Of a stretch of 64,000 nucleotides of DNA, positions 13,549 through 48,815 are shown piece after piece (position 1 is the first letter of the stretch; each line of letters begins with the position of its first letter). Position numbers and translations under genes: made by a program. Source of the DNA: a virus. The notes beneath the pieces were generated by a model that saw nothing but the letters and a program-made list of their open reading frames with translations, was not told the DNA's origin and did no database searches. The stretch spans positions 21,495 through 85,494 of IMG/VR virus record IMGVR_UViG_3300020215_000050; one strand, 5' to 3'.

Positions 13549-13751
13549 GCTGGGACCAACCTCCTCTTTCTCCGTGTGTACACCTTGTGCAACCATATAC
13601 AAAAGGTCGCGATCAGGAAACCGCCCGTGATGACCACGTGGGCGTCCATGAGGATGTGGGCGAGGCGTTCCGCCTCGGTCACCCTCTGCTCGAGGGACGC
13701 CACGTATGACATCCCCGTGAGCATGTCCATGTCGTGCTGGGTCAGGGACAT
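13545..13751 (-). CDS. Small membrane protein
   Basis: C-terminal TM segment followed by a basic tail. Confidence 0.45.
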   Translation of the reverse strand: MSLTQHDMDMLTGMSYVASLEQRVTEAERLAHILMDAHVVITGGFLIATFCIWLHKVYTRRKRRLVPA

Positions 13752-13927
13752 CAGAGCTGCCCCGTCCGGAGGGTCCGGTCTGCGTACATCCAGCCCTCCT
13801 CCCACTGCACGTGCCTGGCCTCGTCGCCCCGCTTCATGTAGGGGTTGAGCAGGCTGCCCACCCCCTTGAGGCGGGCGTCTACGCCCTCGTCGTACGCCTC
13901 ACTGAGCATCGTCTTGAACTTTCCCAT
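13751..13927 (-). CDS. Hypothetical protein (AYxEG...NPY...WxEGW family)
   Basis: AYDEG...LNPY...QWEEGW pattern. Confidence 0.5.
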   Translation of the reverse strand: MGKFKTMLSEAYDEGVDARLKGVGSLLNPYMKRGDEARHVQWEEGWMYADRTLRTGQL

Positions 13928-18590: not shown

Positions 18591-18618
18591 GTTTACCGCA
18601 TTAAAAATCCGGTATAAT
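18591..18618 (+). promoter_or_regulatory. Probable promoter of the tRNA region
   Basis: GTTTAC...GGTATAAT in an AT-rich island, divergent from cassette 3. Confidence 0.55.
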
Positions 18619-18634: not shown

Positions 18635-18717
18635 GTCCTCGTAGCCGAGGCCGCCTTCTAAGCGGTTATCCGTAACCGGAGCTGAGAATGCGGGTTCGAA
18701 TCCTGCCGAGGACGCCA
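18635..18717 (+). tRNA. Non-canonical tRNA-Arg(UCU)-like RNA lacking a D-arm
   Basis: GTCCTCG/CGAGGAC acceptor, GCCA end, loop CTTCTAA, T-loop TTCGAAT; only 8 nt between acceptor and anticodon stems; 23-nt variable region. Confidence 0.8.
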
Positions 18718-18723
18718 GAGCAT

Positions 18724-18800
18724 GTGGACGTGACCCGAATGGCTAGGGGCCGACCTGCAACGTCGCGTACATGTGGGTTCGACTCCCACCGTCCACTCCA
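18724..18800 (+). tRNA. tRNA-Cys(GCA)
   Basis: GTGGACG/CGTCCAC, loop CTGCAAC, U73, CCA. Confidence 0.88.
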
Positions 18801-18805
18801 CTACC

Positions 18806-18880
18806 GGGGCCTCATGTACCAAGGGGGCGAGACTGCCTTGCAAGCAGACTGGGACGGTTCGATTCCGTCAGGCTCCACCA
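18806..18880 (+). tRNA. tRNA-Ala(UGC)
   Basis: G3:U70 pair, loop CTTGCAA, A73, CCA. Confidence 0.9.
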
Positions 18881-18896
18881 ACTTTGGAGGTTCGCT

Positions 18897-19178
18897 ATGG
18901 AAGAAGACGGGCTGTCGGTCCTCGAGGGCACCATCCAGTTCCGCGAATACGCGCCGGAGGAGCTCGTCGTGTGGGACGGCAGATCCCTGACCACCAACGT
19001 GCTCAGGTTCAAGGAGCCCGAGGACGAGCGCGAGCTCGAGTGGAAGGACCGCCTGCAGAGGAAGCGACGGCGCCGTTTCAACCGCTCCATCGCGGCGAGC
19101 AAGATCCCCAACGGCGGCCGGAAGGGCATCGTCTCCCGCCGGGTCCTGATGAACCGGGTCCTCGATGTCGGAGCTTGA
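18897..19178 (+). CDS. Small basic protein, KGxV motif copy A
   Basis: GGAGG SD; RKRRRRF...NGGRKGIVSRRV. Confidence 0.6.
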   Translation: MEEDGLSVLEGTIQFREYAPEELVVWDGRSLTTNVLRFKEPEDERELEWKDRLQRKRRRRFNRSIAASKIPNGGRKGIVSRRVLMNRVLDVGA

Positions 19179-19419
19179 TCCCGTCCGCCTCCACAAGAGG
19201 TACATCCAGCGGTGGCAGAAGTCCGACGACTGCGCCGAGAAGTGGTCCGATCGGGTGTCGAGGGTCGACGACCTCAACCAGGACATCAAGGGGGAGGTCA
19301 ACCCGCGGGTGATGAAGAGGCTGAGGAGGTCCTATGTTACGAGATCTGTGGCCCGGATGCTCGTTGAGGAGGAGAAGAGAAAAGCACGACCACGCGCTCG
19401 TCGCCGAGTACTGCGGTAG
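19165..19419 (+). CDS. Small basic protein, KGxV motif copy B
   Basis: NQDIKGEVNPRV. Confidence 0.55.
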   Translation: MSELDPVRLHKRYIQRWQKSDDCAEKWSDRVSRVDDLNQDIKGEVNPRVMKRLRRSYVTRSVARMLVEEEKRKARPRARRRVLR

Positions 19420-19576
19420 GTACATCGTATGGTGGCAGAAGAGCGAGCCGTGGCGGAGGCGGAACCTGCTGAAGCGGATCGAGCGGAACAAGTACCTGGC
19501 ATTGCCTGGCCGAAGGAAGGGCCCGGTCGCTCCGTGGGTCTTGGCCTCAAATACCTCGAAGAGCTCAAGCCGCTAG
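19334..19576 (+). CDS. Small basic protein, KGxV motif copy C
   Basis: AGGAGG SD; PGRRKGPVAPWV. Confidence 0.5.
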   Translation: MLRDLWPGCSLRRRREKHDHALVAEYCGRYIVWWQKSEPWRRRNLLKRIERNKYLALPGRRKGPVAPWVLASNTSKSSSR

Positions 19577-19722
19577 TGAGGCGGAGGTTCTTGAGGAGGG
19601 TGCCGCTGCTGATGAGGCTGAACGGGATCCACAAGGGCAAGGTAGACAGAAGGGTGAAGATGTCATGGAAGGCTGGGACGGAGGCGGCGGGCCGGCGGAG
19701 CCGCAGTGGTCGGGACCGGTAG
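19534..19722 (+). CDS. Small basic protein, KGxV motif copy D
   Basis: NGIHKGKVDRRV; start uncertain (19429, 19534 or 19576). Confidence 0.45.
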   Translation: MGLGLKYLEELKPLVRRRFLRRVPLLMRLNGIHKGKVDRRVKMSWKAGTEAAGRRSRSGRDR

Positions 19723-19886
19723 TCAAGTCGGACAAGCTGGTGGAGAATCGCCTCCGCGAGCGGAGGAACCAGCGCACGAACCGGCAGGGACTGTACAGGA
19801 ACGGGTACAACAAGGGCAAGGTGAACGCCCGGGTGCTGCCGAGGGGCGGCATCTTTAGGGGGGTAAACTGGAGGAACTTTCTTTAG
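19665..19886 (+). CDS. Small basic protein, KGxV motif copy E
   Basis: NGYNKGKVNARV. Confidence 0.5.
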   Translation: MEGWDGGGGPAEPQWSGPVVKSDKLVENRLRERRNQRTNRQGLYRNGYNKGKVNARVLPRGGIFRGVNWRNFL

Positions 19887-19968
19887 GCCACGTAGCCGAG
19901 CGACGCTTCGAACGTCGTAACCGTAGCTGGAGCTGAGAAGGCGGGTTCGAATCCTGTCGTGGCCTCCA
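19886..19968 (+). tRNA. Non-canonical tRNA-Arg(UCG)-like RNA lacking a D-arm
   Basis: GGCCACG/CGTGGCC, loop CTTCGAA, T-loop TTCGAAT, CCA; 8-nt linker; 23-nt variable region. Confidence 0.8.
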
Positions 19969-19970
19969 AA

Positions 19971-20051
19971 GCTCACGTAACCCCCGGGCTTGCGAAGTCC
20001 GAGAAAGGTAACCGGAGGCAGATGCAGGTTCGAGTCCTGCCGTGAGCGCCA
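19971..20051 (+). tRNA. Non-canonical tRNA-Arg(GCG)-like RNA lacking a D-arm
   Basis: GCTCACG/CGTGAGC, loop TTGCGAA, T-loop TTCGAGT, GCCA; 7-nt linker; 22-nt variable region. Confidence 0.78.
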
Positions 20052-20440: not shown

Positions 20441-20529
20441 GGAGAGTCAACCGGGGAGGTTCCCGGGGCTCCCTGCTAAGGATGCCGGACCCGGTCGGGT
20501 CTGTGTTTCGAGTACACGGCTCTCCGCCA
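20441..20529 (+). tRNA. tRNA-Ser(GCU), atypical
   Basis: Loop CTGCTAA, long variable arm, G73, CCA; 6-bp D-stem, T53:A61. Confidence 0.75.
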
Positions 20530-20543
20530 CCAACGAGTGAACG

Positions 20544-20885
20544 ATGACGTTCAACCAGTACATGATCTGCCTGTTGATCCTCCTCGTGGCGGTCTTCATG
20601 TGGCTCGTCCTCGACCAGACGCCAGAGAAGAGGGAGCCGCCCAAGGCGACGACCCCGGAGCAGGCCAAGCTCGCAGTTGACAAAACGATCGAGAAAGATA
20701 ATTTACGACGACTCAAAAGGAAGGTGAACCGGACAGGCGCGCCGGACTCGCCTGGAAAGCGCAGTGGGCCTCCAAAAGGGGCTCGAGTTTCGAGTACTCC
20801 GCCTTCCGCCACTAGTTCCCTCGCGCGGGAAATGCTCCGCGGACACAGGCGCGAGCACGAGAGAAGGAAGAAAGACATGACATAG
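20544..20885 (+). CDS. Membrane-anchored hypothetical protein whose frame runs through tRNA-Ser(GGA)
   Basis: N-terminal TM segment; no stop before 20885. Confidence 0.4.
   Translation: MTFNQYMICLLILLVAVFMWLVLDQTPEKREPPKATTPEQAKLAVDKTIEKDNLRRLKRKVNRTGAPDSPGKRSGPPKGARVSSTPPSATSSLAREMLRGHRREHERRKKDMT
20719..20811 (+). tRNA. tRNA-Ser(GGA), atypical
   Basis: GGAAGGT/GCCTTCC, loop CTGGAAA, long variable arm, G73, CCA; T53:A61. Confidence 0.75.
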
Positions 20886-20907: not shown

Positions 20908-21270
20908 ATGCGAGAGAAAGCGCAGTACCAGGTAGTCGTGAGGGACCGGATCTACCGGGCCAAGCACGACGGGACCTGGGGGATGTACTGGGACTGGTTC
21001 GTCGACTACAGGTGGTGGGGCTATCACCGGGCGATCGCGACCACCCAGGAGAGGCGGGCGAACAAGGGCCACCGGCAGGAGTTCCGAGAGGAGCGGTGGC
21101 CGGTGAAGTTCAGGATGAGGACCCGGATGGATCTTCCCAACGCCTGGGACGATCTCAACTTCGGCTCCAATAGGAAGTCATGGAAGGACCGCACGCGATG
21201 TCGAAGACAGTGGGAGGTGAACCTCCCTCCACGGAACTGCCCCCCTCCGAGGCTGAGGTGGGAGTGGTGA
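20908..21270 (+). CDS. Conserved basic phage protein (LPNAWDD...KSWK family)
   Basis: TTQERR...LPNAWDD...KSWK...RQW. Confidence 0.65.
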   Translation: MREKAQYQVVVRDRIYRAKHDGTWGMYWDWFVDYRWWGYHRAIATTQERRANKGHRQEFREERWPVKFRMRTRMDLPNAWDDLNFGSNRKSWKDRTRCRRQWEVNLPPRNCPPPRLRWEW

Positions 21271-21597: not shown

Positions 21598-21688
21598 GGA
21601 AGGTGAACCGTACGGGGTACGGCGACGCCTCGAAAGCGCACGGGCCCCCACTAAAGGGGCTGGGGATCGAGACCTCCGCCTTCCGCCA
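21598..21688 (+). tRNA. tRNA-Ser(CGA), atypical
   Basis: GGAAGGT/GCCTTCC, loop CTCGAAA, long variable arm, CCA; D-stem CCGTAC/GTACGG; T-loop ATCGAGA. Confidence 0.7.
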
Positions 21689-21689
21689 C

Positions 21690-21932
21690 TCACTTCAAGT
21701 TGGGAAACCACTGCCGCATCTGTCGGCGCCACTTGGAGTTCCGCCGGTTGTGCCACCAGAACCACCAGTCGTAGAAGTAGTCGTGCATGAAGTGGTCGAT
21801 CCTCTGCACGTGGACGTTGACCCACGAGCCGCATTGACACAGCTCGCAGGGGTCGTCGGGTCCCCCGTCGCGGTGGGCGGAGCAGATGGAGTACCACTCC
21901 TGCCGCCACAGCCCCCTGCCCCTGCTGACCAT
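21690..21932 (-). CDS. Hypothetical Cys/Trp-rich protein
   Basis: CSAH...CELC..G.W. Confidence 0.5.
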   Translation of the reverse strand: MVSRGRGLWRQEWYSICSAHRDGGPDDPCELCQCGSWVNVHVQRIDHFMHDYFYDWWFWWHNRRNSKWRRQMRQWFPNLK

Positions 21933-22872: not shown

Positions 22873-23520
22873 CTAACCGGTCTTGATAGTGATGAAGTCT
22901 GGAACCTGCGTCGGCTGAAAGTCAAACTTTTTTGCAGGCTCGTTTGAAAGAATCTTAATCTCCGGCTCGGGGTCCCTCAGTCGAAGCCGATAGGAGGGTG
23001 GCTCCCCGGGCCTGGCGGGGCCGTACGGCTGGTTTCCCGTCCGTTTGAGTATCTTCTGCCACCGCCTCTGGGCCACGTCCCTGGACAGCCGGGTGAGCCG
23101 GGAGAGTAGGCTCAGGCCGTTGAGGTGGTCCAGCTCGTGCTGAAAGATGCGGGACCCGATGCCGTCTAGGGTCATGTTGGAGGTCTGCCCCGTCGGCGTC
23201 TGGAACCTGACCTTGACGACCTTCGGTCGCTTGACCTTGACCACGACGCCGGGGTACGTGAGGCAGCCCTCCTCGAGCTCGATCTCCTCCCGGGACTGGT
23301 CGATGATCCTCGGGTTGAAGCAGGCGAGATTGGGACTCGAGCGGACCGTGAACAGCCTGGCCCTCACCCCGACCTGGTTGGCGGCGAGGCCGATGCCCCC
23401 CTCCCTCCACATCGCGGCGATCAGGTCGTTGGCGAGCCGGACGGTCTCGTCGTTGAAGGCGTCGATCTCCGGCATCCTCTCTGAGAGGAGCGGGTCGTCC
23501 CACCTAGTCAGCTGCAGCAT
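22873..23520 (-). CDS. def: Peptide deformylase
   Basis: GIGLAANQ, EGCL, QHELDHL. Confidence 0.93.
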   Translation of the reverse strand: MLQLTRWDDPLLSERMPEIDAFNDETVRLANDLIAAMWREGGIGLAANQVGVRARLFTVRSSPNLACFNPRIIDQSREEIELEEGCLTYPGVVVKVKRPKVVKVRFQTPTGQTSNMTLDGIGSRIFQHELDHLNGLSLLSRLTRLSRDVAQRRWQKILKRTGNQPYGPARPGEPPSYRLRLRDPEPEIKILSNEPAKKFDFQPTQVPDFITIKTG

Positions 23521-48261: not shown

Positions 48262-48519
48262 CTACTTTCGGCGTCTGACGCCCATGTACGCGATGACGCC
48301 GGCCTGGGTGACCACCACGAAGGCGAGGAACTTCGACCACCACTGGGCGTCGGCCCTCACGGCCTCCGTCGTCTCGTTCTTCATGTTGTGGAACCAGCTC
48401 CGGTCCTCCTGCCACTGGACCCTCTCGGGCGCGGGAGGACGGGGCAGGGCCCGGTCCGTGACGACCATCGCCGGGAAGGACAGGGCGGAGCAGATGAATG
48501 CGACGAGGAGGAGCTTCAT
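48262..48519 (-). CDS. Small membrane protein
   Basis: Signal-like N-terminus and C-terminal TM segment. Confidence 0.5.
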   Translation of the reverse strand: MKLLLVAFICSALSFPAMVVTDRALPRPPAPERVQWQEDRSWFHNMKNETTEAVRADAQWWSKFLAFVVVTQAGVIAYMGVRRRK

Positions 48520-48815
48520 ACCCGGAACACCCTGATGTGGGGATAGGCGTGCTTCAGCTCCTTGACGATTGAGCGCACCTCCCCCAGGTTGTTGGCGCCC
48601 TGGGCGTCCCACTCGTGCTCGCCGACGGGCTGGACGAGGTACTTGCCGGGATAGAAGAGCGGGGTCGACACCTCGGCGTGCATGGCGTCGCGGAGCCCCC
48701 AGTAAACGGCCTGCGGGATCGGGTGCCCGTGGGCGTCCCGCTGGTCGCGGGCCTGCATCGACCAGTCGAGGTCCTTCTTGCGGACCTCGTTGATGTACTG
48801 GCAGAAGGTCTTCAT
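48516..48815 (-). CDS. Putative internal head protein
   Basis: MKTFCQYINE, like the T4 capsid-targeting sequence. Confidence 0.5.
   Translation of the reverse strand: MKTFCQYINEVRKKDLDWSMQARDQRDAHGHPIPQAVYWGLRDAMHAEVSTPLFYPGKYLVQPVGEHEWDAQGANNLGEVRSIVKELKHAYPHIRVFRV

What the first reader, a model, noticed from the sequence alone, without database searches (positions are those of the whole stretch)
18897..19886. Five overlapping basic mini-ORFs sharing a G-x-x-K-G-x-V-x-x-(R/W)-V motif, wedged between the odd tRNAs
Seen in sequence: NGGRKGIVSRRV (18897), NQDIKGEVNPRV (19165), PGRRKGPVAPWV (19334), NGIHKGKVDRRV (19534 frame) and NGYNKGKVNARV (19665), mostly preceded by an Arg-rich helix. The last two share a DNA repeat, AACGGG-N4-ACAAGGGCAAGGT (19621 and 19800). 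All five are on the tRNA strand. Inference: a diverged tandem paralogue family of RNA-binding peptides, possibly chaperones or partners of the D-armless tRNA-Arg RNAs, ribosome binders, or Arg-supply sensors.
Basis: partly seen in the sequence, partly recalled or inferred. Interest (0 to 1): 0.62.

Follow-up and report, generated by a model that had tools for sequence, protein, structure and literature searches.

The report
Five paralogous basic phage mini-proteins
A soil T4-like phage carries five real, related, very basic small-protein genes inside its tRNA operon; I found the family in no other genome, and the odd arginine tRNAs beside it occur in many phages without it, so it is most likely a lineage-specific accessory acting on host translation, with no function shown.

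Summary
Observation confirmed, with one correction: ORF2 lacks the first Gly. Five of the six genome-wide K-G-x-V-x-x-(R/W)-V matches lie within 700 bp (0.13 expected per genome). Each copy sits in the locally coding frame. Leave-one-out profiles recover four of the five as top hit. In strain variants, ORFs 1, 4 and 5 carry 10 synonymous changes out of 12 (24% expected), so these three are conserved genes; ORF3 shows no such constraint. No homologue was found in 1.8 billion proteins, four family libraries or cultured phages, and the scan had not seen this family on other DNA. The proposed partnership with the rearranged tRNA-Arg is not supported: that tRNA occurs in 86 other phage loci (and earlier scan notes), and none of 49 such records carries the family. 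An Arg-sensor role is rejected. Best reading (about 0.4): small helix-loop-helix RNA/ribosome-binding accessory proteins made from the tRNA transcript. The main rival is a diversifying counter-defence array. Two weak leads: the motif aligns on the trigger-factor ribosome-docking loop (not significant library-wide; its Phe and Pro are missing), and ORF5's stop codon overlaps base 1 of the next tRNA.

The parts
18591..18618 (+). Promoter-like element (GTTTAC, 16 nt, TATAAT) 16 nt before the first tRNA; probable start of the tRNA/ORF polycistron
   Evidence: Only such match in the genome and one of 3 perfect TATAAT. T4-early-type consensus is from memory; missed by the strict sigma-70 scan.
18635..18717 (+). 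Rearranged (D-armless-looking) tRNA-Arg(UCU)
   Evidence: Rfam RF00005 35.5 bits; pattern match
18724..18800 (+). tRNA-Cys(GCA)
   Evidence: ARAGORN
18806..18880 (+). tRNA-Ala(UGC)
   Evidence: ARAGORN
18897..19178 (+). O1, 93 aa: acidic N-terminal half, Arg-rich helix, motif at 19113-19145
   Evidence: Strong SD (-10.0 kcal/mol), GC3 0.89; 4 synonymous + 2 conservative changes in a variant; AF2 helix 44-68, loop, helix 81-88, low confidence
19165..19419 (+). O2, 84 aa; coding signal to about 19330, then a run-on tail under O3; motif at 19279-19311 (Gln for the first Gly)
   Evidence: GC3 0.93-1.0 in the core; leave-one-out rank 1, weak; weak SD, start overlaps the end of O1
19334..19576 (+). 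O3, 80 aa; motif at 19508-19540; shares an upstream segment with O2; the fastest-changing copy
   Evidence: SD -12.7 kcal/mol; repeat D7; variant has mostly non-synonymous changes and an in-frame 3-nt deletion
19534..19722 (+). O4, 62 aa from GTG 19534 or 48 aa from GTG 19576 (which overlaps the O3 stop); motif at 19624-19656
   Evidence: 3 of 3 variant changes synonymous; leave-one-out E 4e-5; AF2 helix 3-32, turn, helix 39-49, low confidence
19665..19886 (+). O5, 73 aa (or 48 aa from GTG 19740); motif at 19803-19835; the last base of its TAG stop is base 1 of the next tRNA
   Evidence: 3 of 3 variant changes synonymous; GC3 0.86; overlap seen in sequence
19886..19968 (+). Rearranged tRNA-Arg(UCG)
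   Evidence: 75% identical to the first copy; pattern match
19971..20051 (+). Rearranged tRNA-Arg(GCG)
   Evidence: Rfam RF00005 33.1 bits; pattern match

Best explanation
O1-O5 are five protein-coding genes that arose by tandem duplication inside the tRNA operon of a T4-like soil phage. O2/O3 and O4/O5 still share DNA repeats. SHOWN: paralogy (strong for O1, O4, O5; weaker for O2, O3), coding-frame signature, and purifying selection on O1, O4 and O5. INFERRED: they are transcribed with the tRNAs from the promoter at 18591-18618; tRNA processing leaves a roughly 1-kb five-gene message; coupled starts and SD sites drive translation. Each product is a 50-90 aa, mostly unstructured protein that folds on binding as a basic helix, a Gly/Lys loop and a short capped helix. 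I think it most likely binds RNA of the host translation apparatus (rRNA surface or tRNA) and adjusts or protects translation during infection, with the copies tuned to different hosts or sites. It is a lineage-specific accessory, not an obligatory partner of the rearranged tRNA-Arg.
For: Motif clustering and leave-one-out recovery. In all five copies the motif is in the frame with the GC3 signature, across three different frames. 10 of 12 variant substitutions in O1/O4/O5 are synonymous against 24% expected, binomial P 2e-5. pI 10-12, and O2, O3 and O5 are among the most basic small ORFs of the genome. Two independent low-confidence models give helix-loop-helix with the break on the motif. 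Embedded between tRNA genes with no + strand terminator-like site. The phage also encodes an RMF-family protein above the Pfam cut-off and a peptide deformylase within about 5 kb, so it invests in ribosome-level control.
Against: No homologue with a known function in Pfam, PHROGs, NCBIfam, PADLOC, PDB sequences, 1.84 billion representatives or cultured phages. Basic charge fits DNA or acidic-protein binding as well as RNA binding. Position in a tRNA cluster is weak evidence: such clusters hold many unrelated small ORFs. Models have pLDDT under 60. The strain variants are few, low-depth contigs from one habitat. O3 shows no synonymous excess.
Confidence: 0.4

Rival explanations
1. A diversifying counter-defence array: each paralogue binds a host anti-phage protein (for example a tRNA-cutting nuclease or a restriction enzyme), and the locus expands and diverges under host pressure, as anti-defence genes in tRNA-rich regions do.
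For: Tandem expansion, restriction to one lineage, and fast amino-acid change in O3. T5-like tRNA-rich regions hold an anti-retron protein, ORF75 (PMC11555353), and T6 amplifies its tRNA locus under Septu pressure (PMC13096335). From memory: T-even ipI, a small variable inhibitor of GmrSD, lies next to the tRNA cluster.
Against: The same T5 paper found few known anti-defence genes in that region. No capsid-targeting-type N-terminus on O1-O5, although other ORFs of this genome have one. O3's pattern (2 of 11 synonymous; 4 changes flank an indel and are ambiguous) matches neutral drift as well as positive selection.
Confidence: 0.28
2. Trigger-factor-loop mimics (a specific form of the best explanation): the helix-loop-helix docks on uL23 at the tunnel exit and displaces or modulates trigger factor or SRP, helping the phage deformylase reach nascent chains.
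For: A degenerate DNA scan for the motif returned about a dozen trigger factors. Profile alignment to 47 independently collected trigger-factor N-domains registers exactly on the G-F-R-x-G-x-x-P signature: score 19.2, pairwise P 0.002, 0 of 200 column shuffles reach it. Conserved G, G and hydrophobic positions coincide.
Against: The residues invariant in trigger factor are missing: Phe 0 of 5, Arg 2 of 5 (and lost in an O3 variant), Pro 0 of 5; the FRK triplet is needed for ribosome binding (PMC11725819). HHalign probability is 14%; P 0.002 would be expected about 50 times in a Pfam-sized library. An unrelated quinone-reductase/ADH tail, picked up by the same motif scan, scores 22.5. Shadow frames in this genome outscore the ORFs on the trigger-factor PSSM.
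Confidence: 0.08
3. Dedicated folding chaperones or partners of the three rearranged tRNA-Arg RNAs.
For: The array lies between the first and second rearranged tRNA on the same strand; the proteins are Arg-rich.
Against: 86 other viral loci carry this tRNA type. In 49 records searched whole (15 of them at least 90% complete) there is no credible match; the two weak hits are poly-Arg stretches, one on the strand opposite the tRNA. No protein family recurs next to the tRNA. Five proteins against three tRNAs.
Confidence: 0.06
4. Basic DNA-binding or internal virion proteins that condense or shield the phage DNA.
For: High positive charge and helical models.
Against: No capsid-targeting-type N-terminus; far from the head genes and on the opposite strand; promoter looks sigma-70/early-like.
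Confidence: 0.08
5. Arg-supply sensors (leader peptides whose stalling controls the downstream tRNAs).
For: 15-21% Arg, with AGG/CGG codons that the flanking tRNAs could read.
Against: No + strand terminator-like site before 21390; no shared RNA structure, z from -1.8 to +1.6; invariant residues are Lys, Gly, Val; AGG is simply this phage's commonest Arg codon, 179 of 507; Arg codons change synonymously in variants.
Confidence: 0.02
6. Non-functional remnants or a chance alignment of shadow ORFs.
For: No homologues; inconsistent gene calls; O3 evolves like neutral sequence.
Against: GC3 signature, SD sites, synonymous bias and motif clustering. May apply to O3 alone.
Confidence: 0.05

Closest known systems
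Small accessory ORFs of phage tRNA-rich regions (T5-like TRR with ORF75, PMC11555353; T6 tRNA-segB locus, PMC13096335)
   Same: Small, lineage-variable genes interleaved with tRNA genes on the tRNA strand; a locus prone to tandem amplification.
   Different: No sequence similarity; here five diverged paralogues of one family; no homing endonuclease seen in the operon; no anti-defence activity tested.
Trigger factor N-terminal ribosome-binding domain (Pfam PF05697; signature G-F-R-x-G-x-x-P)
   Same: Helix, Gly-x-x-Lys-Gly loop, helix, with matching spacing of Gly and hydrophobic positions.
   Different: Invariant Phe and Pro are absent in all five and Arg in three; 50-90 aa against a 144-position domain in a 430-aa chaperone; similarity not significant library-wide.
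Alternative ribosome-rescue factors ArfA / BrfA
   Same: Small, very basic, largely unstructured; BrfA is made from a non-stop mRNA (PMC11633108), and O5 would lose its stop codon if RNase P cuts at tRNA base 1.
   Different: No match to ArfA/BrfA models or structures; the cut would be by RNase P, not RNase III; only one of five genes has this arrangement.
T-even internal protein IPI locus (from memory: small basic variable proteins beside the tRNA cluster that inhibit GmrSD)
   Same: Tandem small basic genes next to tRNAs in a T4-like phage that, according to an unchecked scan note, sugar-modifies hmC.
   Different: No capsid-targeting-type N-terminus and no PHROG match.

Membership tests
Trigger factor ribosome-binding domain (PF05697) | Signature G-F-R-x-G-x-x-P | tested here: not met
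   Phe 0/5, Arg 2/5, Pro 0/5, all 100% in 47 trigger factors
Trigger factor ribosome-binding domain (PF05697) | Pfam Trigger_N match over the 144-position domain | tested here: not met
   No Pfam hit at E 0.1; only 26 columns align, probability 14%
Trigger factor ribosome-binding domain (PF05697) | Helix-loop-helix around the signature | tested here: inconclusive
   AF2 models show helix-loop-helix with the break on the motif, but pLDDT 57-59
Trigger factor ribosome-binding domain (PF05697) | Binding to uL23 on the ribosome | not testable with these tools
   Needs ribosome binding or cryo-EM
ArfA/BrfA ribosome-rescue factors | Sequence match to ArfA or BrfA families | tested here: not met
   No Pfam, NCBIfam or PDB-sequence hit
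ArfA/BrfA ribosome-rescue factors | Expression from a non-stop mRNA | tested here: inconclusive
   O5 stop overlaps tRNA base 1; 0 such cases among about 100 ORF-tRNA junctions in 70 other phage loci, rough ORF calls; processing itself not observed
ArfA/BrfA ribosome-rescue factors | RF2-dependent peptidyl-tRNA release | not testable with these tools
   Biochemical assay needed
Obligatory partner of rearranged phage tRNA-Arg | Co-occurrence with the tRNA across phages | tested here: not met
   0 credible matches in 49 records carrying the tRNA; none in the flanks of 86 loci. Caveat: a five-sequence profile has limited reach.
Attenuator leader peptide (Arg sensor) | Downstream terminator/antiterminator coupled to a short ORF | tested here: not met
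   No + strand terminator-like site until 21390; no conserved fold
T-even internal proteins (IPI-like) | N-terminal capsid-targeting sequence | tested here: not met
   Pattern from memory; found at the start of the ORF at 48516-48815 but not at O1-O5 starts
Phage anti-defence proteins | Rescue of phage growth on a defence-carrying host | not testable with these tools
   Plating assay needed

The most novel reading that the evidence does not exclude
The five genes are minimal phage mimics of the trigger-factor ribosome-docking helix-loop-helix (or otherwise new ribosome-surface ligands) that remodel access to the tunnel exit together with the phage deformylase and RMF-like protein, with O5 output gated by tRNA processing that removes its stop codon.
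Probability: 0.08. Interest if true: 0.75.

Novelty: new member of a known kind. Interest (0 to 1): 0.3.

Why it matters
As it stands this is an undescribed small-protein family, but one of many lineage-restricted paralogue arrays in phage variable regions, with no host and no function. Its main practical value is negative: the widespread rearranged tRNA-Arg does not need this protein family, which narrows how that tRNA can work. If the ribosome-exit or non-stop-mRNA leads held up, it would be a new way for phages to control co-translational processing, and tRNA maturation would act as a switch on a phage protein.

Tried and rejected
Homology: PHROGs, Pfam, NCBIfam and PADLOC gave nothing. phmmer and profile searches of the 5.8-billion set, at near and longer lengths, and of 1.84 billion representatives found only this phage and one strain variant; an ankyrin hit was a repeat artefact. 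tblastn of O1, O4 and O5 against 50,697 phages was empty. ESM Atlas gave no usable feature hit. No PDB sequence match at E 10. Degenerate DNA motif scans of viral, metagenome and genome contigs gave 7, 92 and 10 matches: none is a small basic ORF in a tRNA cluster and none is tandem. The nearest T4-like relatives by capsid protein (10 records including DLP-6) and 80 deformylase loci had no match. Fold search of the O1 model gave only generic long helices, Z at most 3.6, which is uninformative. Co-folding of the O1 core with E. coli uL23 returned 'no answer' and is evidence neither way. No RNA holder was listed among sequencing runs, which says nothing about expression. An RNA- or DNA-level repeat was rejected: the copies sit in three frames, always the coding one, differ at third positions and share no fold. 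A frameshift polyprotein was judged unlikely: the shifts needed are +1, +1, -1, -1 and O3 has its own strong SD. Literature searches found no description of the family.

Full report
Setting. The window lies on a 123-kb viral contig; an ENA assembly of the same phage is 189 kb. Its capsid protein is T4-like, closest to Stenotrophomonas phage DLP-6 at 62%. The runs that hold it are soil metagenomes, and the host is unknown. The stretch 18.6-21.7 kb is a + strand island in a region whose genes otherwise lie on the - strand. It starts at a promoter-like element, GTTTAC-16-TATAAT at 18591-18618, the only one of its kind in the genome. It holds nine tRNA or tRNA-like genes and nine small ORFs, and has no terminator-like site before 21390.

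The observation. The core K-G-x-V-x-x-(R/W)-V occurs six times in the six frames of the genome, five times within 19122-19835, against 0.13 expected per genome. Since the motif was chosen after the fact, I built profiles from four ORFs and searched 1,914 genome segments for the fifth: O1, O2, O4 and O5 came first, O3 came 39th. O3 is linked by a 29-nt repeat shared with O2 (79%) and O4/O5 by a 37-nt repeat (76%), which suggests duplicated pairs. One correction: O2 has Gln where the others have the first Gly.

They are genes. GC3 is 0.80-0.89, and the ORF frame has the best synonymous codon score on the + strand for every copy (for O3 a reverse frame scores higher). A sliding window shows one coding frame at a time, handing over from frame 0 to 1, 2, 1 and 0, and each motif lies in the frame that is coding at that point. 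O1 and O3 have strong SD sites; O2, O4 and O5 start inside the preceding gene. Strain variants give a direct test. A 682-bp variant contig has 3 of 3 synonymous changes in O4 and 3 of 3 in O5, and a Logan contig has 4 synonymous and 2 conservative changes in O1: 10 of 12 against 24% expected, P 2e-5. O3 differs: 2 of 11 synonymous plus an in-frame 3-nt deletion. Four of these changes flank the deletion and are ambiguous, so O3 is either relaxed or diversifying. The variants are few and of low depth. Translation itself was not observed.

No relatives. All five are singletons at 90% identity. Profile searches of 1.84 billion representatives and of the 5.8-billion set return only this phage and the strain variant. 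Family libraries, cultured phages, PDB sequences and the ESM Atlas give nothing. DNA scans for the motif found no small basic ORF in a tRNA cluster. The phage has no close relative in IMG/VR (best capsid 71%, best deformylase about 50%), so the family may be confined to an unsampled lineage. A 40-position profile needs about 41 bits to show in such searches, so distant homologues are not excluded.

Relation to the odd tRNAs. A pattern built from the three rearranged tRNA-Arg genes matched 88 IMG/VR loci, 86 of them genuine, all with Arg anticodons. Forty-nine of these records, 15 of them at least 90% complete, were searched whole; the phage's own genome served as positive control and gave five hits, the others none of substance. 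Clustering 1,769 neighbouring ORFs showed no family that travels with the tRNA. A private association in this lineage cannot be excluded. The Arg-sensor idea lacks an attenuator and a shared RNA fold, and AGG is simply the phage's main Arg codon.

What they look like. The proteins have pI 10-12 and 15-21% Arg; O2, O3 and O5 are among the most basic small ORFs of the genome. Two AlphaFold2 models, both of low confidence, give a long basic helix, a break on the Gly/Lys motif and a short second helix. The residue after the conserved Val is Ser, Asn, Ala, Asp or Asn, typical helix N-caps (established knowledge). This is the anatomy of a peptide that folds on a negatively charged surface. Together with the position in the tRNA transcript and the nearby RMF-family gene (29.2 bits, cut-off 27.9) and deformylase, I put binding to host rRNA or tRNA first, at about 0.4. 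That step is inference. A diversifying counter-defence array is second (0.28): tRNA-rich regions hold an anti-retron protein in T5-like phages and are amplified under nuclease pressure in T6 (PMC11555353, PMC13096335). The two readings can overlap.

Lead 1, trigger factor. The metagenome motif scan returned about a dozen trigger factors. Against 47 trigger-factor N-domains collected independently by Pfam model, the family profile aligns exactly on the ribosome-binding signature (score 19.2, pairwise P 0.002, no shuffle as good). But the three invariant residues are largely missing (Phe 0/5, Arg 2/5, Pro 0/5), the FRK triplet is required for binding (PMC11725819), a motif-selected quinone-reductase tail scores 22.5, and P 0.002 is expected many times in a full library. 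These are not trigger-factor family members; mimicry stays at about 0.08.

Lead 2, non-stop message. The last base of the O5 stop codon (19886) is base 1 of tRNA-Arg(UCG). RNase P cleavage there would leave an O5 mRNA without a stop, as in BrfA regulation by RNase III (PMC11633108). None of about 100 roughly called ORF-tRNA junctions in 70 other phage loci shows this. It is one instance in a tightly packed operon, so chance is a fair explanation.

Verdict. A real, selected, undescribed family of five small basic phage proteins; not an obligatory partner of the rearranged tRNAs and not an attenuator. Tandem families of small accessory proteins are common in phages, and no function or host is known, so interest is modest (0.3).

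Noticed in passing
window 13751-13927 (-): Phage-encoded ribosome modulation factor family protein, Pfam PF04957 29.2 bits against a cut-off of 27.9; no tblastn match in 50,697 cultured phage records.
   Followed up: partly
window 18635-18717, 19886-19968, 19971-20051; loci L094-L180: The rearranged tRNA-Arg is a widespread phage family: 86 IMG/VR loci, all with Arg anticodons (UCU, ACG, UCG, CCU, GCG), mostly missed by ARAGORN.
   Followed up: partly
window 20441-20529, 20719-20811, 21598-21690 (+): At least two of the three tRNA-Ser genes (GCU and GGA, paired by eye) have an 8-bp acceptor and 4-bp T-stem, matching the (8/4) tRNA-Ser of alpha-proteobacterial phages (PMC5389517); the GGA copy matches Caulobacter phage DNA. 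A hint to the host group, though the RMF-like gene points elsewhere.
   Followed up: partly
window 20544-20885 (+): Membrane-anchored ORF with no stop before tRNA-Ser(GGA) at 20719; its frame runs through the tRNA, so processing would also leave a non-stop message. A strain variant ends at 96 aa instead of 113.
   Followed up: partly
window 20908-21270 (+): A further Arg/Trp-rich basic ORF in the tRNA operon, phrog_12793 (E 1e-5); 8 of 9 variant changes are synonymous. Unrelated to O1-O5.
   Followed up: partly
window 22873-23520 (-): Peptide deformylase with a C-terminal extension of about 60 aa, 3 kb from the array.
   Followed up: no
L117, tRNA strand 225-515: 96-aa basic ORF directly after a rearranged tRNA-Arg whose N-terminus recalls ArfA (resemblance from memory, not tested).
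   Followed up: no
window 18885-19106: Assemblies break or form a strain bubble inside O1: the 189-kb contig starts and ends here, and a variant contig diverges 5' of 18967. The O1 N-terminal half may be swappable.
   Followed up: partly
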